A stretch of 25,692 nt of DNA, from assembly GCA_046757025.1 (NCBI GenBank), contig JBHHXN010000065.1:1-25692 (forward strand). The letters run 5' to 3'. The notes below the pieces were generated by a model that was not told the DNA's origin, did not search any database, and worked only from the letters and a program-made list of their open reading frames with translations. The translations under genes were made by a program, and so were the position numbers. The DNA is from a bacterium. Its GTDB lineage: Bacteria > Zhuqueibacterota > Zhuqueibacteria > Oceanimicrobiales > Oceanimicrobiaceae. This document shows positions 1,776 through 25,692 of this stretch, in pieces. Every line of letters begins with the position of its first letter. Within the stretch, counting starts at the first letter, position 1.

Positions 1776-1900
1776 GGCAGTCTCCTTTTTAAATGATTGG
1801 TATGTTTTTTAATGTTGCGGTTGAGCGAGGTGGCTTTAACATCTTTTTTAACATTTCTCACTTCAATAAGCTGATAAAACTATCATATAAACAAGGTCTT

Positions 1901-2010
1901 AATGTCATTCTGGAAGAATCTTTTTAGTTCTAAGAAATGAGTATTGAAGTAGCACCTGTGCTTAAAATCAAATGGATTCCTCCTACCAGTCCCGCAAGGC
2001 GGGGAATGAC
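1901..2010. repeat. GTCAT...ATGAC REP-like inverted pair; the right copy carries an extra CCCGCAAGGCGGG hairpin
   Basis: GTCATTCTGGAAGAATC (1904-1920) faces GATTCCTCC...GAATGAC (ending 2010); 1901-1926 is the exact reverse complement of 6383-6408. Confidence 0.75.
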
Positions 2011-2378: not shown

Positions 2379-2451
2379 GTTGTCACTCAGGAGGAGTCTT
2401 TTTATTAAAGTAAACTGCTGTTAATTAAAAGGATTCCTCCTGAATGACAAC
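2379..2451. repeat. GTCA(T/C)...ATGAC REP-like inverted pair (REPIN-like)
   Basis: GTTGTCACTCAGGAGGAGTCTTTTT vs AAAAGGATTCCTCCTGAATGACAAC, 25-bp arms with 3 mismatches; outer AAAAATTCAC/GTGAATTTTT inverted repeat at about 2346 and 2467. Confidence 0.75.
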
Positions 2452-2598
2452 GAAGTTGTGAATTTTTCAGGGTAAATGAATTTTCATGATATTTCATCCC
2501 AACCCGTCGGTTTTTTTTGTTTTCGATATGGCCGATTGCTATACACAGCCACTCTTGTGGAGCGATTTATTGCAAAACGTCGCTTTGTTTTATTAGCG

Positions 2599-2664
2599 AA
2601 CCCCGTAGGGGTGGTATATTTATAGAAATGTTCAATCCTAAATCCCCAAAACCCTGTAGGGGTG
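2599..2664. repeat. Direct pair of short palindromic REP-like units AACCC(C/T)GTAGGGGTG
   Basis: Copies at 2599-2613 and 2650-2664, each with an ACCCC-GTA-GGGGT type hairpin. Confidence 0.7.
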
Positions 2665-2939
2665 AAATCTTGCTGCAACGTAAAATCAAACCTGCACCCT
2701 GAGATTAAATTTAATAACTCTCTGCAAGGCTTCGAGTGAATGACCTTACAAACTCATTCAGGTTTTTTCAGTGAAGAATAGTGTATGATTGGTTATCAAA
2801 CAGATCATCAACTCCACCCTCCGTTTAGAGTGGCTGAACATTCATCTTGTGAAGGATACGTATTGTTTTTAAAACGCTGGTACTAAGTGTGGCGTCGGTG
2901 TGGAGAAGAAGTGCCGGAATGCGTTCCAGCGTTAGAATT

Positions 2940-2968
2940 ATAATAATAATCCCTTTTGGGAAATGCAA
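2940..2968 (-). promoter_or_regulatory. Putative sigma70-type promoter
   Basis: Minus strand reads TTGCAT-17 nt-TATTAT. Confidence 0.45.
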
Positions 2969-2990
2969 GCAAAAAAAGTAGCGCCGATCC

Positions 2991-3023
2991 ATACCTTCCA
3001 GGTCTTAAAGACCTGGAAGGTAT
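2991..3023. repeat. Perfect 33-bp palindrome overlapping the stop codon of the PQQ-like gene
   Basis: ATACCTTCCAGGTCTT-A-AAGACCTGGAAGGTAT, 16-bp perfect arms. Confidence 0.9.
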
Positions 3024-4399
3024 TCTGCATCAGAAATACAGTACAAATGTGTGGCCGTGCGCAGAAAGAGCTGCGAGCCGCTAGCGATCGGCGAAGACAG
3101 GGTGTAGCTGCCGTCGAGCTCATTGGTGGCCAGCAGCTTGAACTCCCCGCCTGCTGCCAGCACCGTACTCACCGCCTGTTCGTTGATGATGTAGAGCTTG
3201 CCATCGGCCAGCAGCGGCGAGGCACTGACAATACCCTGCACCGTGCGCTGCGGCCCCCAGACCACTTCGCCGGTTTTGGCGTCAAGACAGATGACTCTGC
3301 CGCGGTCATCCACCATGTAGAAATGCTTGCCGTCGCACACCGGCGTGGGCACGTCGGTGGCCGCTTCTCCGGCCCATTTCCAGGCCAGGTGACTCGTGCT
3401 AACATCGCCTTTGCCGCCGGCCCGCAAAGCCAACAAGGGCTTCCTGCGCGTGGGAGCATAGACTATACCGTCCACGACCATGGGCGAGGCCACGATACGG
3501 TAATTTCTACGCTTCTGAGGATTCAAGCCACCTGCCCGCCAGATTTCCGTACCGCTTTCCGGATCGTGACCGGTCACGTAGTCGCCGCCGGTGATCACGA
3601 TTTGGGATTGGCTGTCATGCTGCAGCAAAGCCGGCGTGGTGTAGGCATCGGGGGATTCTGCCAAAGCGTCGGTGGGCCGTTCCTGTCGCCAGAGCTCCTT
3701 CCCCGACAGGGCATCAAATGCTACCACATAAGAAGGGTCGTCGGTGCGGTACCCCTGCAGCACCTGAATGAACAGCTTGCTGTTGTACAGCAGCGGCGAG
3801 GAAGCGTAACCCCAGTTCAAACCGAACCGCCCATAGTCCTCCTGCAGGTTGCGCTGCCAGAGCTGCTTGCCGTCCATATCGAAGGCCGTCACCGCACCGG
3901 TGCCCGTGACCACCCAGACGTGCCGGCCATCGGTGACCGGCGAAGGCGACGAATTATTTTGTTTGCGGTGCAGCCGGTTGCCTTTGTCCAGGTCGCGCTG
4001 CCAGAGGATGCGACCATCTTTTTTGGAGAGACAAATCAGCAGCAGCGTGTCGCCGCCGGGATTGCGTGCCTGTCCACGAGACCTGCGGCGGCCGCGCGTT
4101 TCCTGCTGCGATTCTTTAGGCGGCATCTTTGCAGCCGGTTCGGCTTTGCTGGGCGAAGTCACAAAGATCCGATCACCCCAGATGATGGGGGTGCCGCCGC
4201 TCCAGGCCGGCAGCGGCGTCTTCCAGACGATATTCTCGGTAGCGCTCCAGGTCGTGGGCAGATTTTTTGCCGAGCTGACGCCGTTTTGAGCCGGGCCGCG
4301 CCATTGCGGCCAGTTATCCTGTGCCCGGGTTTCACACACCTTGATGCTTATGAGCATCGTAAGCGTCAACACGAAAAATGAAATGCTTCTTGCCATCAT
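3005..4399 (-). CDS. PQQ-binding-like beta-propeller repeat protein (BamB-like fold), secreted
   Basis: Signal peptide followed by NWPQWRGP; repeated A/C-x-D-xx-G-xxxW docking motifs (AFDALSGKELW, CLDAKTGEVVW); GGAGG RBS. Confidence 0.9.
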   Translation of the reverse strand: MMARSISFFVLTLTMLISIKVCETRAQDNWPQWRGPAQNGVSSAKNLPTTWSATENIVWKTPLPAWSGGTPIIWGDRIFVTSPSKAEPAAKMPPKESQQETRGRRRSRGQARNPGGDTLLLICLSKKDGRILWQRDLDKGNRLHRKQNNSSPSPVTDGRHVWVVTGTGAVTAFDMDGKQLWQRNLQEDYGRFGLNWGYASSPLLYNSKLFIQVLQGYRTDDPSYVVAFDALSGKELWRQERPTDALAESPDAYTTPALLQHDSQSQIVITGGDYVTGHDPESGTEIWRAGGLNPQKRRNYRIVASPMVVDGIVYAPTRRKPLLALRAGGKGDVSTSHLAWKWAGEAATDVPTPVCDGKHFYMVDDRGRVICLDAKTGEVVWGPQRTVQGIVSASPLLADGKLYIINEQAVSTVLAAGGEFKLLATNELDGSYTLSSPIASGSQLFLRTATHLYCISDAEYLPGL

Positions 4400-6334: not shown

Positions 6335-6408
6335 TGTCATTCTTTAGGAATCATTAAAAACCTGGCGTAAAGGGCTGTTTATTAAAAAGATTCTTCCAGA
6401 ATGACATT
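6335..6408. repeat. GTCAT...ATGAC REP-like inverted pair
   Basis: TGTCATTCTTTAGGAATC vs GATTCTTCCAGAATGACA; the right arm is an identical inverted copy of 1901-1926. Confidence 0.75.
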
Positions 6409-6884
6409 AGGGTAAGCAGAGTTTAGAATTGTCGCAATTGTGCTTTGCACTCATTCTGTAATGCTTGAACACCGTGTCGACTGTGGGTTGTTTGGAGCAC
6501 ACCTCGTCAATAAGTGCCTGGATCCGGTGCAAAATATCCTGCAGGTAATTGAGCTGTTTCACGAATATGGGTAAGAAATCGTATCTATGAGAAATGCTGA
6601 TTTCAATTAGCGAACCCCTGTCGACCTCATCCGCAGCCAATGGGTGGTCCCCACTGTGCGCTTGCAAATATATGAAATTTAAAATCCGTTTTCAATCTTT
6701 ACGCGATGATTCGACGATTTTTTTAAACTGAAGCAGGCTAATCCGCAACGTTAGAACCTGTGTTTGCAACGCATTTTCATTTATTAGAATTAGCGCGGGC
6801 TGAGCGAGCGGTCATTTTCGTAGATCGTGTGTGGTGTGTTTTTTTGAACAAAGACGATTCTTGCTCAGAAGATTCGGCAGGCCA

Positions 6885-17537: not shown

Positions 17538-18605
17538 ATGAAAAGAACAGATAAAAACAGCATCCGGGAAACATTGATCGGGGTCCTTCTGGTCTCGTTT
17601 CTCATGATTAATCCGCCGACCATATTTACTCAGCCGGCGTCGCAGCCAACATTCGGACTCGTCATTCACGGTGGCGCCGGCACCATCACCAAAGAAAATA
17701 TGACGCCGGCGCTGGAAGAAGCTTATCGCGCCAAAATGAAGGAAGCGTTGCTGGTGGGCTACAAAATTCTCAGCAACGGCGGCAGCAGTCTGGATGCCGT
17801 GGAAAAAGTCATCAACATCATGGAAGACTCGCCGCTGTTCAACGCCGGCAAAGGCGCGGTTTTCACCAGCGACGGCAGCCACGAGCTGGACGCCTCCATC
17901 ATGGACGGCAAAACGCTGCAGGCGGGAACGATTGCCGGGGTGAAACACATCAAAAATCCCATTAGCCTGGCGCGACTGGTCATGGAAAAATCGCCGCATG
18001 TCATGCTGGTGGGCCAGGGCGCGGAAGATTTCGCCGCCCTGCACAACATGCAGAAAGTATCTCAGTACTACTTTTACACCGAAAGAAGATGGCAGCAATT
18101 GCAGAAACAAAAAGAAGCGGAAACCCAGGAATCCGAAAGCACTAAACGCGAAATGCAGGAAAAAAAATACGAGAAGCACGCAGACAAATCCAAAGGTACC
18201 GTCGGCTGCGCGGCGCTGGACAAAAACGGCAATTTAGCAGCCGGTACTTCCACCGGCGGCATGTCCAACAAACATTACGGCCGGGTTGGCGACTCCCCCA
18301 TCATCGGCGCCGGCACCTATGCCAACAACCAAACCTGCGCCATATCCGCTACCGGCAGCGGCGAGTATTTCATGCGCCTGCTGGTAACTCACGATATTCA
18401 CGCGCTCATGGCTTACCAAAACCTGTCTTTGCAGGAAGCAGCCCGTAAAGTGATCAGGGAAAAACTCACCGAACTCGGCGGCACCGGCGGCATTATCTCC
18501 ATCGACAAAAACGGCAACATCGCCATGCCGTTTAATACCAAAGGCATGTACCGCGGTTATGTGCGTAACAACGGGCAACCCGTGGTGAAGATTTATCAAG
18601 ATTAA
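17538..18605 (+). CDS. iaaA: Isoaspartyl peptidase/L-asparaginase (type 2, Ntn hydrolase) with signal peptide
   Basis: IHGGAG, EDSPLFNAGKGAV, autocleavage site GTVG, TSTGG, GRVGDSPIIGAG and TGSGE; GAGG RBS. Confidence 0.92.
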   Translation: MKRTDKNSIRETLIGVLLVSFLMINPPTIFTQPASQPTFGLVIHGGAGTITKENMTPALEEAYRAKMKEALLVGYKILSNGGSSLDAVEKVINIMEDSPLFNAGKGAVFTSDGSHELDASIMDGKTLQAGTIAGVKHIKNPISLARLVMEKSPHVMLVGQGAEDFAALHNMQKVSQYYFYTERRWQQLQKQKEAETQESESTKREMQEKKYEKHADKSKGTVGCAALDKNGNLAAGTSTGGMSNKHYGRVGDSPIIGAGTYANNQTCAISATGSGEYFMRLLVTHDIHALMAYQNLSLQEAARKVIREKLTELGGTGGIISIDKNGNIAMPFNTKGMYRGYVRNNGQPVVKIYQD

Positions 18606-18700
18606 GGCCCGATCATTTCTAACACCCAAAACCCGCGATTGGCTTTTAGCTTTTGACCATGGGTATTAAATGTTTGGGAACGTACATTGAGACTATCCTT

Positions 18701-18830
18701 TCACCTGTTAGGCCCGTCTGGGTCTGCCGGTGCCGGCACGGCAGACAGGTGCACACACAGGCAGGTGAGTTACAAAACCATTTTAGCTGATTGTGTTTTA
18801 TTAGCTAACAGCCAACGGCTAATAGCGAAT
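18701..18830. repeat. Nested palindrome plus heptamer tandem repeats
   Basis: GTCTGCC-G-GTGCCGGCAC-GGCAGAC (18722-18746) inside TCACCTG/CAGGTGA; AGCTAAC AGCCAAC GGCTAAT AGCGAAT (18803-18830). Confidence 0.65.
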
Positions 18831-18888
18831 CACTCAATTATTGGTAATGGTTTAACTTTTCAATTATTTTTTATAACGGAGGAGACGG

Positions 18889-19947
18889 ATGTCAAAAACC
18901 ATCAATCGCAGAAATTTCATAAAAAAAACTGCCAGTGTGGGCTTAGCCCTGCCCTTCATCGAAAAGCTACCTGAAATCATCATCCCTGCTAAAAAGCCCG
19001 CCGCTAAGCTACCCATCATTGTGTGCAGCCGTGGTGAAAAATGGGGGGAAAAAGTTCTAACTCCCGCATGGGACAACCTCAACCAAAGCGGAAATATTCT
19101 GGATGCGGTGGAAAAAGGCGCCAATGTGGTGGAGCTGGACCCAGAAGATTCCAGCGTAGGCTACGGCGGTTTACCCAACGAACAGGGCGTGGTGCAACTG
19201 GATGCTTCCGTGATGTACGGCCCCACTCACAATTGCGGTTCGGTGGCGGCTTTGGAAGGCATCAAAACACCCTGCTCCGTGGCGCGACTGGTGATGGAAC
19301 GCACCGACCATATCCATCTGGTGGGCGCAGGTGCGCTAAAATTCGCCATAATGCATGGCTTTAAAAAAGAAAATTTACTCACCGACAAAGCCCGGCTGCG
19401 CTGGTTGAAATGGAAGGAAAATCTCAGTGACAAGGATGACTGGTTCCCGCCAGCTGACAACAATTATGAAAAGGAAGAAAGGCCTACCGGCACTATCAAT
19501 GTTTTGGGTATCGACAAAGATGGCAATGTCGCCGGCATCACCACCACTAGCGGATTGGCCTGGAAGATACCGGGTCGGATGGGCGACTCCCCTATTATCG
19601 GCGCGGGCCTGTATGTAGACAACGAAGTGGGCGCCGCGGGAGCGACTGGCCGCGGCGAAGAAGTCATCCGCACCTGCGGCAGCTTTTTGCTGGTGGAAAA
19701 AATGCGCAGCGGTATGTCGCCGCAGGCAGCCTGCGAAGCCGTCTGCCAGCGCATTATCGACATCAACGGTGGACCCGAGAAAGTCAATTTCTCGGATAAG
19801 TTCGTGGCGGTCAACAAAAACGGTGAGGTCGGTTGCGCCTCCATCCTCGGACGAGAAGGGCGCGAACCCTCGGTGGCATTTATAACGGAAGACGGATTTA
19901 AAGCCATCAAAGGCACGTATTTGATCGAAGTGAAACCAAAAGAATAG
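18889..19947 (+). CDS. N(4)-(beta-N-acetylglucosaminyl)-L-asparaginase-like Ntn hydrolase with Tat signal
   Basis: INRRNFIK twin-arginine motif; SVGYGGLP, LDASVM, GTI autocleavage site, TTSGLAWKIPGRMGDSP and ATGRGEE; GGAGG RBS. Confidence 0.9.
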   Translation: MSKTINRRNFIKKTASVGLALPFIEKLPEIIIPAKKPAAKLPIIVCSRGEKWGEKVLTPAWDNLNQSGNILDAVEKGANVVELDPEDSSVGYGGLPNEQGVVQLDASVMYGPTHNCGSVAALEGIKTPCSVARLVMERTDHIHLVGAGALKFAIMHGFKKENLLTDKARLRWLKWKENLSDKDDWFPPADNNYEKEERPTGTINVLGIDKDGNVAGITTTSGLAWKIPGRMGDSPIIGAGLYVDNEVGAAGATGRGEEVIRTCGSFLLVEKMRSGMSPQAACEAVCQRIIDINGGPEKVNFSDKFVAVNKNGEVGCASILGREGREPSVAFITEDGFKAIKGTYLIEVKPKE

Positions 19948-20692: not shown

Positions 20693-23224
20693 ATGATTGG
20701 AACAACAATCTTACACTATCGAATTGTTGAAAAGCTCGGCGAAGGCGGCATGGGCGTGGTTTACAAAGCCGAAGATACCAGGCTCAAACGCGACGTCGCC
20801 ATCAAATTCCTGCCGCGCCAGATTGCGGCCAGCCAGGAAGAACGCGCGCGTTTTAAAATCGAGGCGCAGGCCGCCGCGGCCCTGAACCACCCGAACATCG
20901 CCCACGTTTACGCCATCGAGGAAGTGGATGACGAGATGTTCATTGTGATGGAATACATCGAGGGCAAGGAATTGCGGGAGATCATTCAAATCCCTCCTGA
21001 CCCCCCTTTACTAAAGGGGGGAAGTGGTGGGCCTCCCCCTTTGAAAAAAGGGGACCGAGGGGGATTTGCAATTGAACAAATCCTCAGCTACGCCACCCAA
21101 ATCGCTGCAGGCCTGCAGGCTGCGCACAAAAAAGGTGTCGTACATCGTGACATCAAAAGCGCCAACATCATGATTACCGAAGAAGGCCAGGTGAAAATCA
21201 TGGATTTCGGGCTGGCAAGAATCGTCGGCGGGGCGCAGGTAACCAAGAAGGGCACGACCCTGGGCACGGCCGCCTACATGTCGCCGGAACAAGCGCGCGG
21301 TGATATCGTAGATTATCGCACGGATATCTGGGCATTTGGCGTTGTGCTTTACGAAATGATAACCGGACGCTTGCCGTTTCAGGGGGATTACGAGGCGGCG
21401 GTCACTTACTCGATTCTGCACGAAAAACCGGAACCCTTGGAGCGATACAAAGCCAATGTTCCAAATGGCTTGCTAATCGTTATCGATAAATCACTGGCTA
21501 AAAATCCTGATGAACGTTACCAGCATGCCGACGAAATAATCGTAGATTTGCAATCCTTGAGAGCCGAACTCATATCAGGAAAAACAGACACAAGTTCAAT
21601 TAGGGCAAAACCAGGAAGAAGGAATCGAATCTATCTCTATAGTGGTTTTGTCGCTTTCTTGATTTTACTCTTGTTCATTTTGGCCAGAATTTATTTCTTT
21701 CCTGATCAGAACGTTACCATCAATTCGATTGCCGTGATGCCGCTAGAGAATCTAATGGGCGACTCTCATGAAGACTACTTCGTAAACGGGATGACGGAGG
21801 AACTCATCAGCAAACTATGTCAACTTGAAAATCTACAAATTACATCTATGAAAGGAGCACAAAAAGATCTGCGCCAGGTTGGTGAGGAATTTGGGGTGAC
21901 GTATATCCTCAGTGGTAGCGTTCGCAAGGCAGATGAGCGCGTCCGCATCACCGTTAAATTAACTGATGCTGCTACTGGCTTCCACCTCTGGTCGGAAGAA
22001 TTTAACGGAGAGTTGAATGACTTGTTCGCGCTGCAGGAAGAAACTGCGCTGAAAATCGCAGAAGCACTCAACTTCCAATTAAGCCCAGAGGAAACAGAAG
22101 CCGTTCGCCAACGCTATACGGAAAACCTCGAGGCCTACGATGCCTTTTTGCGTGGCTGGGCTCTGATCGAATCCTTTCATGTCAGTTTGTCTGTTCCGGA
22201 GGAAAGGCTCGAAGCTGCTCAAAAGCACTTTGAAGATGCTCTTGCATCTGATCCAAATTACGCCCTCGCTCTGGCGGGTCTGTCCATCGTGCATTCCTCC
22301 TCTTACTTCTTCAAGGTGGATGCGACTGCCGAACGTTTGCAGCTTGCAGAGAACCTGGCAAAACAAGCACTGGCGCTCGATTCGCAGCTTGCCGAAGTCC
22401 ATGTCGCCTTAGCTGAAGTTTATGCTCTTCGAGGCGATTTTGATGACGCTATCGAGAAGTATCGCATCGGGCTGGGTCAGGACCCCGAAGACCCAAAGAA
22501 CGCTTATGCCTGGTGTCACCTAGCTTTTACCTATGATTCTCAAAATCCGCCTGACCCGCGTGCGGCTGAGGCAGCCGTGCGGGAGGCGATCCGCCTGCAA
22601 CCCGGTTACTTCTGGTCGTATGTAATCCTCGCCGGTGCACTTGAACGTCAAGAGCGGTATAAGGAGGCAATCTCCGCACTTGAATACGCTTTACAGCAGA
22701 ACCCGCATTTCCATCCGGCGCGGGGCAGTCTTGGGCGTTTGTACAATGAGCAGGGAAGGTTTGAAGAGGCCTTGTCAAAATATCAGAAGGCGGTCGACCT
22801 TGGAGTAGCAAATATATATGACCGGCTCTTTTATTTTCTCCTCCAATGTCGGTTGGGTAAGGTTGAGCAAGCACAAGTACAAATGCGCGATTTCTCCAAA
22901 TCCCTTAGCGACGAATCATGGATAACACCTATTGTGCGCTTCTACTCCGGCGATATTCCGGAAAGCATGATCTGGGAGCTAACGAAAGACCAGGATCCAC
23001 AAAAAGAAAAGGAAAAGCAGTGTGAGACATACTATTATCTTGGTATGGCTTATTTGCTAAATATGGATGTTGAATTAAATACATCAGCGCCCGATACAAC
23101 GGTCGCGCGGGAATATTTTGAAAAATGCTTAGCCAGTCATATGACAGATTTTTTTGAGTATCATTTTGCGGAAATAGAGTTGAAGCGTCTTCAAACGACA
23201 AAGGGAATTGGCCTCAAAGATTAA
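20693..23224 (+). CDS. Membrane Hanks-type Ser/Thr protein kinase: kinase - TM - TolB-like - TPR - NlpI-like tail
   Basis: LGEGGMG, VAIK, HRDIKSAN, DFGLA, YMSPE and DIWAFG; TM helix IYLYSGFVAFLILLLFILARIYFF; SIAVMPLENL TolB-like segment; TPR repeats. Confidence 0.96.
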   Translation: MIGTTILHYRIVEKLGEGGMGVVYKAEDTRLKRDVAIKFLPRQIAASQEERARFKIEAQAAAALNHPNIAHVYAIEEVDDEMFIVMEYIEGKELREIIQIPPDPPLLKGGSGGPPPLKKGDRGGFAIEQILSYATQIAAGLQAAHKKGVVHRDIKSANIMITEEGQVKIMDFGLARIVGGAQVTKKGTTLGTAAYMSPEQARGDIVDYRTDIWAFGVVLYEMITGRLPFQGDYEAAVTYSILHEKPEPLERYKANVPNGLLIVIDKSLAKNPDERYQHADEIIVDLQSLRAELISGKTDTSSIRAKPGRRNRIYLYSGFVAFLILLLFILARIYFFPDQNVTINSIAVMPLENLMGDSHEDYFVNGMTEELISKLCQLENLQITSMKGAQKDLRQVGEEFGVTYILSGSVRKADERVRITVKLTDAATGFHLWSEEFNGELNDLFALQEETALKIAEALNFQLSPEETEAVRQRYTENLEAYDAFLRGWALIESFHVSLSVPEERLEAAQKHFEDALASDPNYALALAGLSIVHSSSYFFKVDATAERLQLAENLAKQALALDSQLAEVHVALAEVYALRGDFDDAIEKYRIGLGQDPEDPKNAYAWCHLAFTYDSQNPPDPRAAEAAVREAIRLQPGYFWSYVILAGALERQERYKEAISALEYALQQNPHFHPARGSLGRLYNEQGRFEEALSKYQKAVDLGVANIYDRLFYFLLQCRLGKVEQAQVQMRDFSKSLSDESWITPIVRFYSGDIPESMIWELTKDQDPQKEKEKQCETYYYLGMAYLLNMDVELNTSAPDTTVAREYFEKCLASHMTDFFEYHFAEIELKRLQTTKGIGLKD
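20987..21068. repeat. In-frame palindromic element inside the kinase ORF
   Basis: Two inverted ~36-bp units, each with a CCCC(C)TTT-n-AAAGGGG(G) hairpin; outer ends CAAATCCCTC / GGGGGATTTG; translated as QIPPDPPLLKGGSGGPPPLKKGDRGGF. Confidence 0.85.
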
Positions 23225-23380
23225 AAACAAGCGTTTCTCATAATGTTAAACTTATCGATACCAAGTTAGCACTGAAATCCCTAAACGAGGTAGATAGAAC
23301 TAACTGGTCACGTTTGTTATGCGAGCTCAGTTAGTTAAGCATTTAATGTAGGAGGAGTATTAATAATAAAGGAAGGCCCG

Positions 23381-24328
23381 ATGTCATATATTAGCATTTC
23401 CGATGTAGTGAAAGTCCAGAAAGCTGATCTCTTTGTGTTTTTTATGTGCATCATCCTGCCATCAACTTTAATGAGTCAGCCTTGGCTATATCACCCAGAT
23501 ATTCCTCAGGCACGGGTGGAGACCTACAAACTGGTAGGTGACACGAAACTACAATTATGGATATTTACCCTAAAAGCCCATCGTGAGGGAGATCAACGCC
23601 CGGCAATCATTTTTTTCTTCGGCGGCAGCTGGAGGTACGGCAGTCCGATCCAATTTGCAAAACACTGTGAGTACCTGGCTACTCGTGGTATGGTAGCTAT
23701 GACTGCTGACTACCGTGTAATTGATCGACACTGAGTAAAAGCTAAGGATTGCGTTGCCGATGCAAAATCGGCAATACGGTGGGTTCGCAAAAATGCGGCT
23801 CGCCTTGGAATAGATTCTAATCGAATTGTAGCGGGCGGTGGCTCTTCCGGCGGACATTTGGCCGCCGCAACAGCAATATTGCACGGGCATGACGATCCCA
23901 ATGACGATATGTCAATAAACGCTAAGCCTAATGCGCTTATTCTATTTAATCCGGCTGTGGTGCGGGCGCCCGTGCCCGGCTTATGGCAGCCCACCGCGGA
24001 AGAACTATCCAAATTTGAAGCATGGTTTGGTGAGGACGCTCATTCATTTTCTCCATTTCATCATATCACCAAAGGCATCGGGCCTACCATTATAATAAAT
24101 GGTACCGCTGATTCCACTGTTACTTATAAAAGTGTGAAGCTGTTTTGTGACAAGATGCGAGAACAAGGCAACCGTTGCGAGGTAGTTGGCTACAGTGGCG
24201 CGAAGCATGCCTTCTTCAATTTTGGCCGTGGAGAAAATGCTGCTTTTATTGATACCGTGAACAAAATGGATCAATTTCTGGTTTCCCTAGGATATCTAAG
24301 TGCACCACCTGAAGCGGAGTCATATTAA
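23381..24328 (+). pseudogene. Alpha/beta hydrolase (HSL-like esterase) interrupted by one in-frame TGA at 23732-23734
   Basis: ORFs 23381-23734 and 23858-24328 share a frame; read-through gives DYRVIDRH*VKAKDCVADAKSAIRWVR...GGSSGGHLAA, with FFGGSW, GTADSTV and HAFFN motifs all present. Confidence 0.85.
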
Positions 24329-24394
24329 GAAGGTCGTTTTGATTAGCTTAGCGGCTCAAAATTCATAACACCACAAAAAACTAAGGAGGACTAA

Positions 24395-24940
24395 ATGCTT
24401 GTTAAATATCGTTACTTGTTCCTGCTGGTAGCGCTTCTCCTCCTCATAATCGTCACGTCAGAATTCAGGCCAGTCAACAGTGAAGAAACCGCGCGACAAG
24501 GACGTGTCATTCAGCCCAACGAAGGCGATTCCTTTCAACTCAGTAACGGCATCGGGACTATCAAAGTTGACCCGAACATCGGCGCGGAGAATTTCGCAAT
24601 GGGTACACAATATATTGAACCGGGTCGGGGTATTAGGGTTCATTTGCACGAGCATCTTGAAGAGGTTTTATACATAACAAGCGGCGAAGGTACGGGCATT
24701 GTGGGCGAAAAACGTGCACCGCTCGTTGCCGGTACGGCAATCTATATACCCAAGGGTGTTTGGCATGGTATCGAAAGCGATGGGAAGGAGATGGAGCTAC
24801 TCTGAATTGTATCTCCGCCAGGATTGGATGCGATGTGGCGGGAAGTAGCAGTACCTGTCGGTGAACCTAGAAAGGCTATTACTCCTGAAGAACGCGAGAA
24901 AATCCTTCGCAAGCACGGTATGCGATTCAAGCCAGATTGA
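24395..24940 (+). pseudogene. Cupin-domain protein interrupted by one in-frame TGA at 24803-24805
   Basis: HLHEHLEE and IPKGVWHG cupin motifs; the frame continues ELL*IVSPPGLDAMWREV...RKHGMRFKPD to TGA 24938-24940; AAGGAGG RBS. Confidence 0.82.
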
Positions 24941-25203
24941 GACATTAAGGATTAATTTATGATTGGGAAGCAGATTTTACATTATCAAATATTAAAAAAG
25001 CTCGGCGAAGGCGGCATGGGCGTGGTCTACAAAGCCGAGGATGCCAGGCTCAAACGCGACGTCGCCATCAAATTCCTGCCGCGACAGATTGCGGCCAGCC
25101 AGGAAGAGCGTGCCCGGTTCAAAATAGAGGCGCAGGCCGCTGCGGCGCTGAACCACCCGAACATCGCCACGATTCATGCCATTGAAGAGCACGAGGACGA
25201 GCT

Positions 25204-25424
25204 TACGGCTATCCAGTTAACTCAGCTTGAACTTATAAAAGCTCTTTTCGATTGATATAAACCTTAATCGTCATGCCCGCGAAGGCGGGCATCCAGAGGT
25301 TTCGACCGCCTCAAATCTTTGTTTCTAAATGGATTCCCGCTTTCGCGGGAATGACTGACTATAGCATTCTTTTAAATACTGAATTCAGTAATAACCCCGT
25401 TTCTGAGCAAACTGGATAGCCGTA
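25204..25424. mobile_element. 221-bp MITE with 22-bp terminal inverted repeats and a 9-bp target-site duplication
   Basis: TACGGCTATCCAGTTAACTCAG ... CTGAGCAAACTGGATAGCCGTA (20/22 match); flanked by GGACGAGCT at 25195-25203 and 25425-25433. Confidence 0.93.
25270..25355. repeat. GTCAT...ATGAC REP-like inverted pair nested inside the MITE
   Basis: GTCATGCCCGCGAAGGCGGGCATCCA ... TGGATTCCCGCTTTCGCGGGAATGAC. Confidence 0.88.
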
Positions 25425-25472
25425 GGACGAGCTGTTTATCGTCATGGAATACATTGACGGCAAGGAGTTGGC

Positions 25473-25507
25473 CAACCTCCCGAAGGTTCAGAACCTTCGG
25501 GAGGTTG
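25473..25507. repeat. Perfect 35-bp palindrome in frame inside the second kinase
   Basis: CAACCTCCCGAAGGTTC-A-GAACCTTCGGGAGGTTG; translated within [13 protein letters not shown]. Confidence 0.9.
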
Positions 25508-25692
25508 TGGATTACGCCACCCAAATCGCCGCCGGTCTGCAAGCCGCGCACGAAAAAGGCGTGGTGCACCGGGACATCAAATCCACCAACATCATGGTGA
25601 CGGATAAGGGCGTCGTCAAGATCATGGACTTCGGGCTGGCCAAAGTGTGCGGCGGGGCGCAGGTGACCCGAGTAGGTACGACGCTGGGCACG

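What the first reader, a model, noticed from the sequence alone, without database searches (positions are those of the whole stretch)
20987..25507. The same kinase loop is occupied in frame by two different palindromic elements in two paralogues
Seen: both kinases are near-collinear up to EYI(E/D)GKEL and again from YATQIAAGL. Between these, kinase 1 has 38 aa including an 82-bp double-hairpin element (20987-21068), and kinase 2 has 14 aa encoded almost entirely by an unrelated perfect 35-bp palindrome (25473-25507). Both keep the frame. Known: this is the alphaD-alphaE 'kinase insert' position after subdomain V, and coding palindromic insertions are documented (Rickettsia palindromic elements, cyanobacterial short dispersed repeats). 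Inference: this loop may be a recurrent hotspot where repeat elements rewrite a surface loop across an expanded kinase family, giving repeat-driven protein diversification rather than a single accident.
Basis: partly seen in the sequence, partly recalled or inferred. Interest (0 to 1): 0.8.

Follow-up and report, generated by a model that had tools for sequence, protein, structure and literature searches.

The report
Kinase loop overwritten by mobile repeats
In a family of bacterial sensor kinases, one short loop of the enzyme is encoded by small DNA repeats of at least five unrelated kinds that replace each other in frame, likely because rare repeat insertions survive there and are then swapped between gene copies by recombination, which would make junk DNA a steady source of new protein sequence at one fixed spot.

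Summary
Both palindromes are real and in frame in the alphaD-alphaE segment, but kinase 2 is broken 14 codons upstream by a 221-bp MITE. The hotspot idea holds. All 8 close paralogues in this genome carry a repeat-derived loop. So do 76 of 177 related kinases, against at most 3 of about 170 in five other kinase segments. At least five repeat kinds occur. Kinase 2's palindrome belongs to a dispersed family that flanks RAYT-like transposase genes in two relatives. Kinase 1's element belongs to a family that flanks a DUF559 gene. Heptamer loops resemble repeats flanking four-helix-bundle genes. Many repeats replace native residues and keep the helix-E hydrophobic register. One pair is 93-99% identical in DNA except for this loop; another shares a 156-nt identical tract centred on the element. 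Best reading: rare in-frame capture, then exchange between paralogues, filtered by selection; a function is untested. In-frame REPs are known, but multi-family turnover at one site was not found in print. The scan noted similar loops on other DNA (e1-2369704, e1-6971316).

The parts
20693..23224 (+). Kinase 1: intact Hanks-type Ser/Thr kinase with TPR C-terminal region, 843 aa
20975..21088 (+). alphaD-alphaE segment of kinase 1 (38 codons; the usual length is 16)
20987..21068 (+). Double-hairpin C-run/G-run element (family B here). Related copies: two paralogues on C258 (89% over 80 nt), a partial copy on C72, and both flanks of a DUF559 gene in G001
20930..20974 (+). Conserved left flank (beta5 and hinge), 84% identical to 25426-25470; a likely homology arm for exchange (inferred)
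   Evidence: D5
21089..21268 (+). Conserved right flank (helix E onward), 77% identical to 25513-25692; a likely homology arm (inferred)
   Evidence: D2
24959..25203 (+). Kinase 2, 5' part (N-lobe), 84% DNA identity to kinase 1
25204..25424 (.). 221-bp MITE with 22-bp terminal inverted repeats and an internal hairpin (25270-25356). It inactivates kinase 2. The 9-bp target duplication lies at 25195-25203 and 25425-25433. Six identical copies in the genome
25434..25692 (+). Kinase 2, 3' part, running off the contig end
25473..25507 (+). 35-bp palindrome (family C here). Its 33-bp core is identical to a copy in G012, and the same arms flank a RAYT-like Y1 transposase gene in G012
2991..3023 (.). 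Intergenic 33-bp palindrome of a related family C variant in the same window

Best explanation
The alphaD-alphaE segment of this kinase subfamily is encoded by short repeats of several unrelated families that replace one another in frame, likely through rare capture of locally mobile repeats followed by recombination between paralogues, with selection likely keeping only versions that preserve the fold. Step 1 (shown): the loop repeats belong to families that also lie between genes, beside or inside genes for RAYT-like Y1 transposases, a DUF559 protein and four-helix-bundle proteins. Step 2 (inferred): these proteins or ordinary repair place a repeat at the end of helix D, and a resident repeat favours the next insertion. 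Step 3 (shown as a sequence pattern, mechanism inferred): the conserved DNA on both sides lets the loop be copied or swapped as a cassette between paralogues and between lineages. Step 4 (inferred from frame and register): purifying selection removes out-of-frame versions and keeps those that supply the hydrophobic residues at the start of helix E. No benefit of the repeat itself is required.
For: Site specificity: 76 of 177 loops pass the stem or heptamer test, against 1-3 of 163-176 in five other kinase segments. In the closest 90 kinases, 58 loops pass, against 7 of 197 linker windows, 6 of 730 C-terminal windows and 50 of 5222 random coding windows of G000. Dispersed families: the family C pattern occurs in 21 of 23 genomes of the order, with 0 control matches. 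It flanks Y1 genes on both sides in L387 and L375. Family B flanks a DUF559 gene in L354. Heptamer runs lie beside the 9 PF05635 matches inspected in G000. Local capture: G010 has 58 GTAG copies, and its kinase loop differs from one of them at 1 of 28 nt. In G002 the same 28-mer is in a kinase loop and in a RAYT-like gene. G006's loop equals four other copies in that genome. Nesting: 6 B-type loops keep the 3' end of an A-type repeat, L060 joins B to half of C, and some MITE copies sit in or beside other hairpins. Exchange: L027 and L057 are 93-99% identical on both sides but have unrelated loops. The two C258 kinases share a 156-nt identical tract while their N-lobes are 58-62% identical. Selection: hydrophobic residues at -1, -5 and -7 are kept in 71, 68 and 60 of 72 element loops (73, 71 and 67 of 77 without an element). 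Catalytic motifs are intact in 69 of 72. Three frameshifted loops were found.
Against: No insertion event, target motif or enzyme activity was shown. The protein of L387 has no match in G000, so kinase 2's palindrome may have arrived by gene transfer. No whole repeat-flanked gene was found inside the loop. Rows are related and some are near duplicates (G013:C571 is 99.75% identical to G000:C258 over 3.6 kb). Two searches used repeat-bearing queries, which favours repeat-bearing hits. The thresholds were set after seeing the data, and loops with inserts are longer windows. The model does not fully explain why the flexible linker behind the kinase has far fewer repeats than this short loop.
Confidence: 0.65

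Rival explanations
1. The site is actively targeted: a DNA feature at the end of helix D, or a resident hairpin cut by its cognate nuclease, would make this a programmed break point that is refilled from whatever repeat or paralogue is at hand.
For: Element starts fall 15-36 nt after the hinge glycine codon, with 17 of 26 A-type starts at 21 nt. In five kinase-rich genomes, 9 of 17 copies of one GTAG pattern are in this loop. Among the first-listed copy per genome, 5 of 21 (family C) and 6 of 17 (GTAG) are in it. TnpA-REP can cleave and rejoin REP sequences (PMC6006769, passages).
Against: The families are linked to unrelated proteins, so one targeting enzyme is unlikely. In repeat-rich genomes most copies lie elsewhere (58 in G010, 31 in G001; not all were inspected). 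Hybrid histidine kinases show a similar in-frame site (3 of 21 loci), so the pattern is not kinase-specific. A narrow window of starts is also expected from protein tolerance.
Confidence: 0.17
2. Loop variants are selected for function: the alphaD-alphaE surface would tune substrate or partner docking and keep many paralogous kinases apart, with repeats as the supply of variation.
For: All 8 close paralogues in G000 carry a repeat loop, of four kinds. The alphaD-alphaE insert is fast-evolving and functionally used in animal tyrosine kinases (PMC8662651, passages). Turnover is high: 52 minimum changes on a 149-row tree.
Against: Identical loops occur in divergent paralogues on one contig, the opposite of insulation. 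Unrelated loops occur in near-identical kinases. The kinase 1 insert is predicted to be disordered. No functional data exist.
Confidence: 0.12
3. The RNA hairpin is what is selected, for example as a ribosome pause or stability element at the N-lobe/C-lobe boundary, and any repeat that folds will do.
For: Most families, including many heptamer tracts, fold into stems.
Against: By inspection, 14 of 29 A-type loops have decayed to stems under 10 bp in otherwise open genes. 101 of 177 related kinases pass neither the stem nor the heptamer test.
Confidence: 0.04
4. Assembly artefact or chance palindromes.
For: The kinase 5' ends are repeats at high summed depth, and no listed public contig spans the whole stretch.
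Against: Both loops are spanned without differences. The same families recur in kinases of many genomes. The folding z-scores are -4.1 and -8.2.
Confidence: 0.02

Closest known systems
Intragenic GTAG/CGTC REPs, REPtrons and TIRtrons (Di Nocera et al. 2013, PMC3733652; passages and sections 15-16 read)
   Same: [quoted passage not shown]
   Different: That paper reports intragenic REPs at different sites, with recB of two Xanthomonas species as the one case at about the same site. Here one homologous site holds at least five unrelated families across many genomes, and they replace native residues and each other.
Rickettsia palindromic elements (as summarised in PMC10969869 and PMC3184786; passages only, the original papers were not seen)
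   Same: Palindromic mobile DNA is translated as part of apparently functional proteins.
   Different: RPEs are about 105-150 bp and spread over unrelated genes. Here 27-85 bp repeats and heptamer runs concentrate on one loop of one paralogue family.
TnpA-REP subclasses 2.4 and 2.6/2.8 (PMC6006769; passages including a table row)
   Same: L308, L339 and L346 carry a GTAG repeat inside a transposase-like ORF, as listed for subclass 2.4. L387 and L375 have NHYH and YIHLNP motifs, closest to 2.8/2.6.
   Different: Subclass assignment is by motif reading only, and NF047646 scores (56-77 bits) are below its 80-bit cut-off.
Ectopic gene conversion between paralogues (established knowledge)
   Same: An identical tract between divergent paralogues, and a loop-only swap between near-identical genes.
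   Different: The exchanged segment is foreign repeat DNA.
Kinase insert domain (DE insert) of animal tyrosine kinases (PMC8662651; passages)
   Same: Same structural position, fast evolving.
   Different: No repeat origin is reported in the passages read, and no homology is implied.
Cyanobacterial SDR and STRR repeats (recalled; two look-ups of the paper failed)
   Same: Small mobile repeats and heptamer runs, some reported in coding regions.
   Different: Not compared by sequence here.

Membership tests
REP/TIR repeat of a RAYT-type transposase (kinase 2 palindrome) | 20-40 bp palindrome | tested here: met
   35 bp, 34 of 35 self-complementary
REP/TIR repeat of a RAYT-type transposase (kinase 2 palindrome) | Dispersed, mostly extragenic copies | tested here: met
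   22 of 24 related palindromes in G000 are intergenic; the pattern is in 21 of 23 genomes
REP/TIR repeat of a RAYT-type transposase (kinase 2 palindrome) | Copies flank a Y1 HuH transposase gene | tested here: met
   L387 and L375: PF01797 over cut-off, NF047646 just under; no match of the L387 protein in G000
GTAG-tagged REP (kinase 2 palindrome) | GTAG or CGTC tetranucleotide at the foot | tested here: not met
   Absent from 25465-25515. Met by the A-type loops on C228 and C196
REP/TIR repeat of a RAYT-type transposase (kinase 2 palindrome) | Cleaved or moved by the transposase | not testable with these tools
   Needs biochemistry
REP/REPIN (kinase 1 element) | Hairpin pair that recurs outside genes | tested here: met
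   15 intergenic C-run/G-run hairpins in G000; the closest non-kinase copy is partial, 89% over 35 nt
REP/REPIN (kinase 1 element) | Associated with a RAYT gene and GTAG foot | tested here: not met
   No GTAG foot; the one gene association found is DUF559 (L354)
MITE (loop elements) | Target-site duplication | tested here: inconclusive
   None seen by eye at the loop junctions; no systematic test was run
MITE (25204-25424) | Terminal inverted repeats, target duplication, several copies, no transposase | tested here: met
   22-bp arms, 9-bp duplication, 6 identical copies; no autonomous partner found
Hanks-type Ser/Thr kinase (kinase 1) | Gly loop, VAIK lysine, HRD, DFG and fold | tested here: met
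Programmed diversification system (integron or DGR type) | Dedicated recombinase or reverse transcriptase with a defined site or template | not tested
   No such gene among the 9 window ORFs scanned; the genome was not searched for one

The most novel reading that the evidence does not exclude
The alphaD-alphaE segment is a true hypervariable cassette of a receptor-kinase family. Resident hairpins are cut by their own nucleases, the gap is refilled from other repeats or paralogues, and selection uses the new surfaces to re-tune docking. This would be a diversification system with no dedicated enzyme, fed by at least three unrelated selfish repeat-gene systems, in which repeat DNA builds part of a core helix.
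Probability: 0.17. Interest if true: 0.88.

Novelty: new variant of a known kind. Interest (0 to 1): 0.62.

Why it matters
In-frame palindromes are usually treated as scattered accidents. Here one homologous site gives dozens of natural replacements with a native control, so three open questions become testable. How do REP-like repeats integrate? Do DUF559 and four-helix-bundle proteins move their flanking repeats? How much foreign sequence can build a structured part of an enzyme? It also warns that this loop is useless for phylogeny and that coding loops can hold a large share of a genome's REP copies.

Tried and rejected
A fold of kinase 1 without an alignment was unusable (pLDDT 33; pending, result); it was repeated with an alignment. 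A search for a whole transposase, DUF559 or four-helix gene inside the loop found none. Two kinase starts are followed by RAYT-like remnants upstream of the loop (L105, L281; identified by eye). No RNA holder was listed, so expression is untested. The L387 protein gave no match in G000, which shows nothing without a control. My first tree labels were partly wrong (53 changes). Relabelling gave 52 changes against 70-87 for 200 shuffles, still with some mis-calls (L035, L030, L178_m148 and L204 unlabelled; L043 mislabelled). FastTree support is weak and recombination inflates the count. The six in-gene hits of the 11-mer E pattern and the C51 kinase hit were treated as chance. The activation segment has long insertions in about 60 kinases but few stems (1 of 170 and 4 of 102 with at least 10 bp), so length tolerance alone does not give palindromes. 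Literature searches listed no paper on multi-family repeat turnover at one kinase site. The library lacks most subscription papers, and supplements of PMC3733652 (list of target ORFs) were not opened and could name kinases.
Full report
Observation. The window ends with two Ser/Thr kinase genes. Kinase 1 (20693-23224) is intact: a Hanks kinase domain followed by TPR repeats, closest among solved structures to PknB. Its 82-bp element folds far better than shuffles (z -4.1), and so does the 35-bp palindrome of kinase 2 (z -8.2). Both are in frame between GKEL and YATQ. A model built from 105 sequences puts the kinase 1 segment between helices D and E, at low confidence inside a confident fold. 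Six identical copies of this MITE are in the genome. Public contigs from one study, probably the source, span element 1 without differences in two runs and palindrome 2 in one run. The best named relative is a record titled uncultured Calditrichaceae (74%); I did not test the lineage further.

Own genome. Of 28 kinase rows with a complete loop, the 8 closest (YATQ-type helix E) all have repeat-like loops. Three carry the C-run/G-run element (family B), one the kinase 2 palindrome (C), two a GTAG palindrome (A), and two heptamer runs (H; 15 and 14 of 21 matches at lag 7, against 10 of 5222 coding windows reaching 14). None of the other 20 loops folds below -15 kcal/mol. With family patterns and a simple gene caller, in-gene copies of A, B and C were in six kinase loops and one type I methyltransferase-like gene; one short hit in another kinase was treated as chance. 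22 of 24 C-like, 15 of 22 B-like and 1 of 3 A-like hits were intergenic.

Relatives. I gathered 308 distinct kinase domains from the genome, relatives, named genomes and metagenomes; 299 had enough aligned columns to be scored. A loop counted if it had a stem of 10 or more pairs (one mismatch allowed) or 14 of 21 matches at lag 7. Among 177 domains at least 62% identical to a reference, 76 loops pass, against 1-3 of 163-176 in five other segments. Only 4 of 104 and 1 of 18 more distant kinases pass. By origin: 67 of 113 within the window's phylum, 5 of 19 from metagenomes and 4 of 45 from named genomes, including one acidobacterial kinase with its own GTAG repeat pair. In the closest 90, 58 loops pass against 7 of 197 linker windows (three real elements, one run of N), 6 of 730 C-terminal windows and 50 of 5222 random coding windows. 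These rows are related, two of the searches used repeat-bearing queries, and the thresholds were chosen after inspection, so the ratios are descriptive.

What the repeats are. Family C occurs in 21 of 23 genomes of the order. An exact copy of the kinase 2 core is in G012, where the same arms flank both ends of a Y1 transposase gene; G011 shows the same layout with another variant. Family A occurs between genes and in frame inside RAYT-like genes, as listed for TnpA-REP subclass 2.4 (PMC6006769, passages). Family B flanks a DUF559 gene in G001. Heptamer runs lie beside the four-helix-bundle genes of G000, and the run beside C153 resembles the loops of C53 and L051. A fifth kind (E) appears in two kinases. 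Loops often carry the variant that is common in the same genome: G010, G002 and G006. In G012 and G016 the loop copy is the only match of the GTAG pattern. That these proteins move the repeats is inferred from position only.

Replacement and exchange. The native loop is 16 aa. 31 of 72 repeat-bearing segments are at most one residue longer than native, and hydrophobic residues at -1, -5 and -7 before the D/N-Y/I-A motif are kept as often as in repeat-free kinases. The repeats therefore supply the start of helix E by homology; this was not modelled for a C- or H-type protein. Mosaics show succession: six B loops keep the 3' end of an A repeat, and one joins B to half of C. L027 (G001) and L057 (G014) are 93-99% identical over the first 170 codons, except exactly between the ELR and ATQ codons. 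The two kinases on C258 share a 156-nt identical tract around the element but only 58-62% in the N-lobe; L067 and L071 show a similar pattern. A tree without the loop needs 52 changes of loop type (shuffles 70-87), with weak support and some mislabelled rows. Three genes are frameshifted in the loop and one breaks off behind a C element into another repeat, so failures occur but are rare among those recovered.

Mechanism. The most likely reading is capture, exchange and filtering: repeats enter rarely at the end of helix D, resident repeats attract more, conserved flanks let paralogues trade the segment, and selection keeps frame and register. Insertion of REPINs into or beside existing ones is described (PMC3116915, passages). 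Active targeting stays open, because the loop holds 9 of 17 copies of one GTAG pattern in five kinase-rich genomes while the flexible linker holds few. But G010 has 58 and G001 31 copies, mostly not at known kinase positions, and hybrid histidine kinases have a comparable site. Selection on the RNA hairpin is unlikely, because about half of the A-type loops have decayed. A docking function is untested.

Comparison and verdict. In-frame REPs and RPEs are known (PMC3733652, passages and sections 15-16; PMC10969869 and PMC3184786, passages). PMC3733652 reports them mostly at different sites. My searches listed no report of several unrelated families replacing each other at one site. Earlier notes of this scan describe a similar multi-element loop in STAND-kinase genes and in a signalling gene on other DNA; I did not check them. 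Verdict: real, a new variant of a known kind, interest 0.62.

Noticed in passing
L329, L331, L337 (G005, G013, G018); L303 (G013); L363 (G001): Sensor histidine kinase genes carry family C in frame at one site just before the ATPase domain in three genomes. L337 holds four repeat-like inserts; L303 has a GTAG repeat in a linker; L363 has a half B element close to kinase 1's.
   Followed up: partly
G000:C258 and L034 (G013:C571): 99.75% identical over 3.6 kb between genomes of different genera: cross-binning or very recent transfer.
   Followed up: partly
G000:C201:3-329; G000:C258:3463; L026, L028, L035, L058, L213, L055: Weaker secondary sites in the same kinases: repeat-like inserts in the beta4-beta5 loop and after helix C.
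   Followed up: partly
L105:5600-6390; L281 (minus strand, about 2380-3300); L210: Kinase gene starts broken off by repeats, two of them followed by RAYT-like remnants (read by eye).
   Followed up: partly
G000:C173:8403-8435: A family C variant in frame in a gene that reads like a type I restriction methyltransferase (identified by eye); the only non-kinase in-gene copy found in G000.
   Followed up: partly
G000 C14:10236 and C92:19856: Family C palindromes sit at the truncated 5' end of four-helix-bundle genes.
   Followed up: no
window 25204-25424 and copies on C46, C107, C259: Several MITE copies lie in or right beside other hairpin repeats; shorter 183-186 bp relatives share its ends; no autonomous partner was found.
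   Followed up: partly
window 23381-24328: An esterase-like gene split into two ORFs by a stop at 23732-23734.
   Followed up: no
window 24395-24920: A cupin ORF ends at TGA 24803-24805 and the frame appears to continue; broken gene or read-through not tested.
   Followed up: no
window 1900-1926 and 6383-6409; 2379-2451: A perfect 27-nt inverted pair 4.5 kb apart and a related 31-bp hairpin, probably halves of another repeat family.
   Followed up: no
window 17538-19947: Two tandem Asparaginase_2 paralogues; the second has a twin-arginine-like leader.
   Followed up: no
G000:C36:299-613: A DUF559 match inside a 629-aa frame whose flanks read like an intein in a DNA methyltransferase (by eye).
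   Followed up: no
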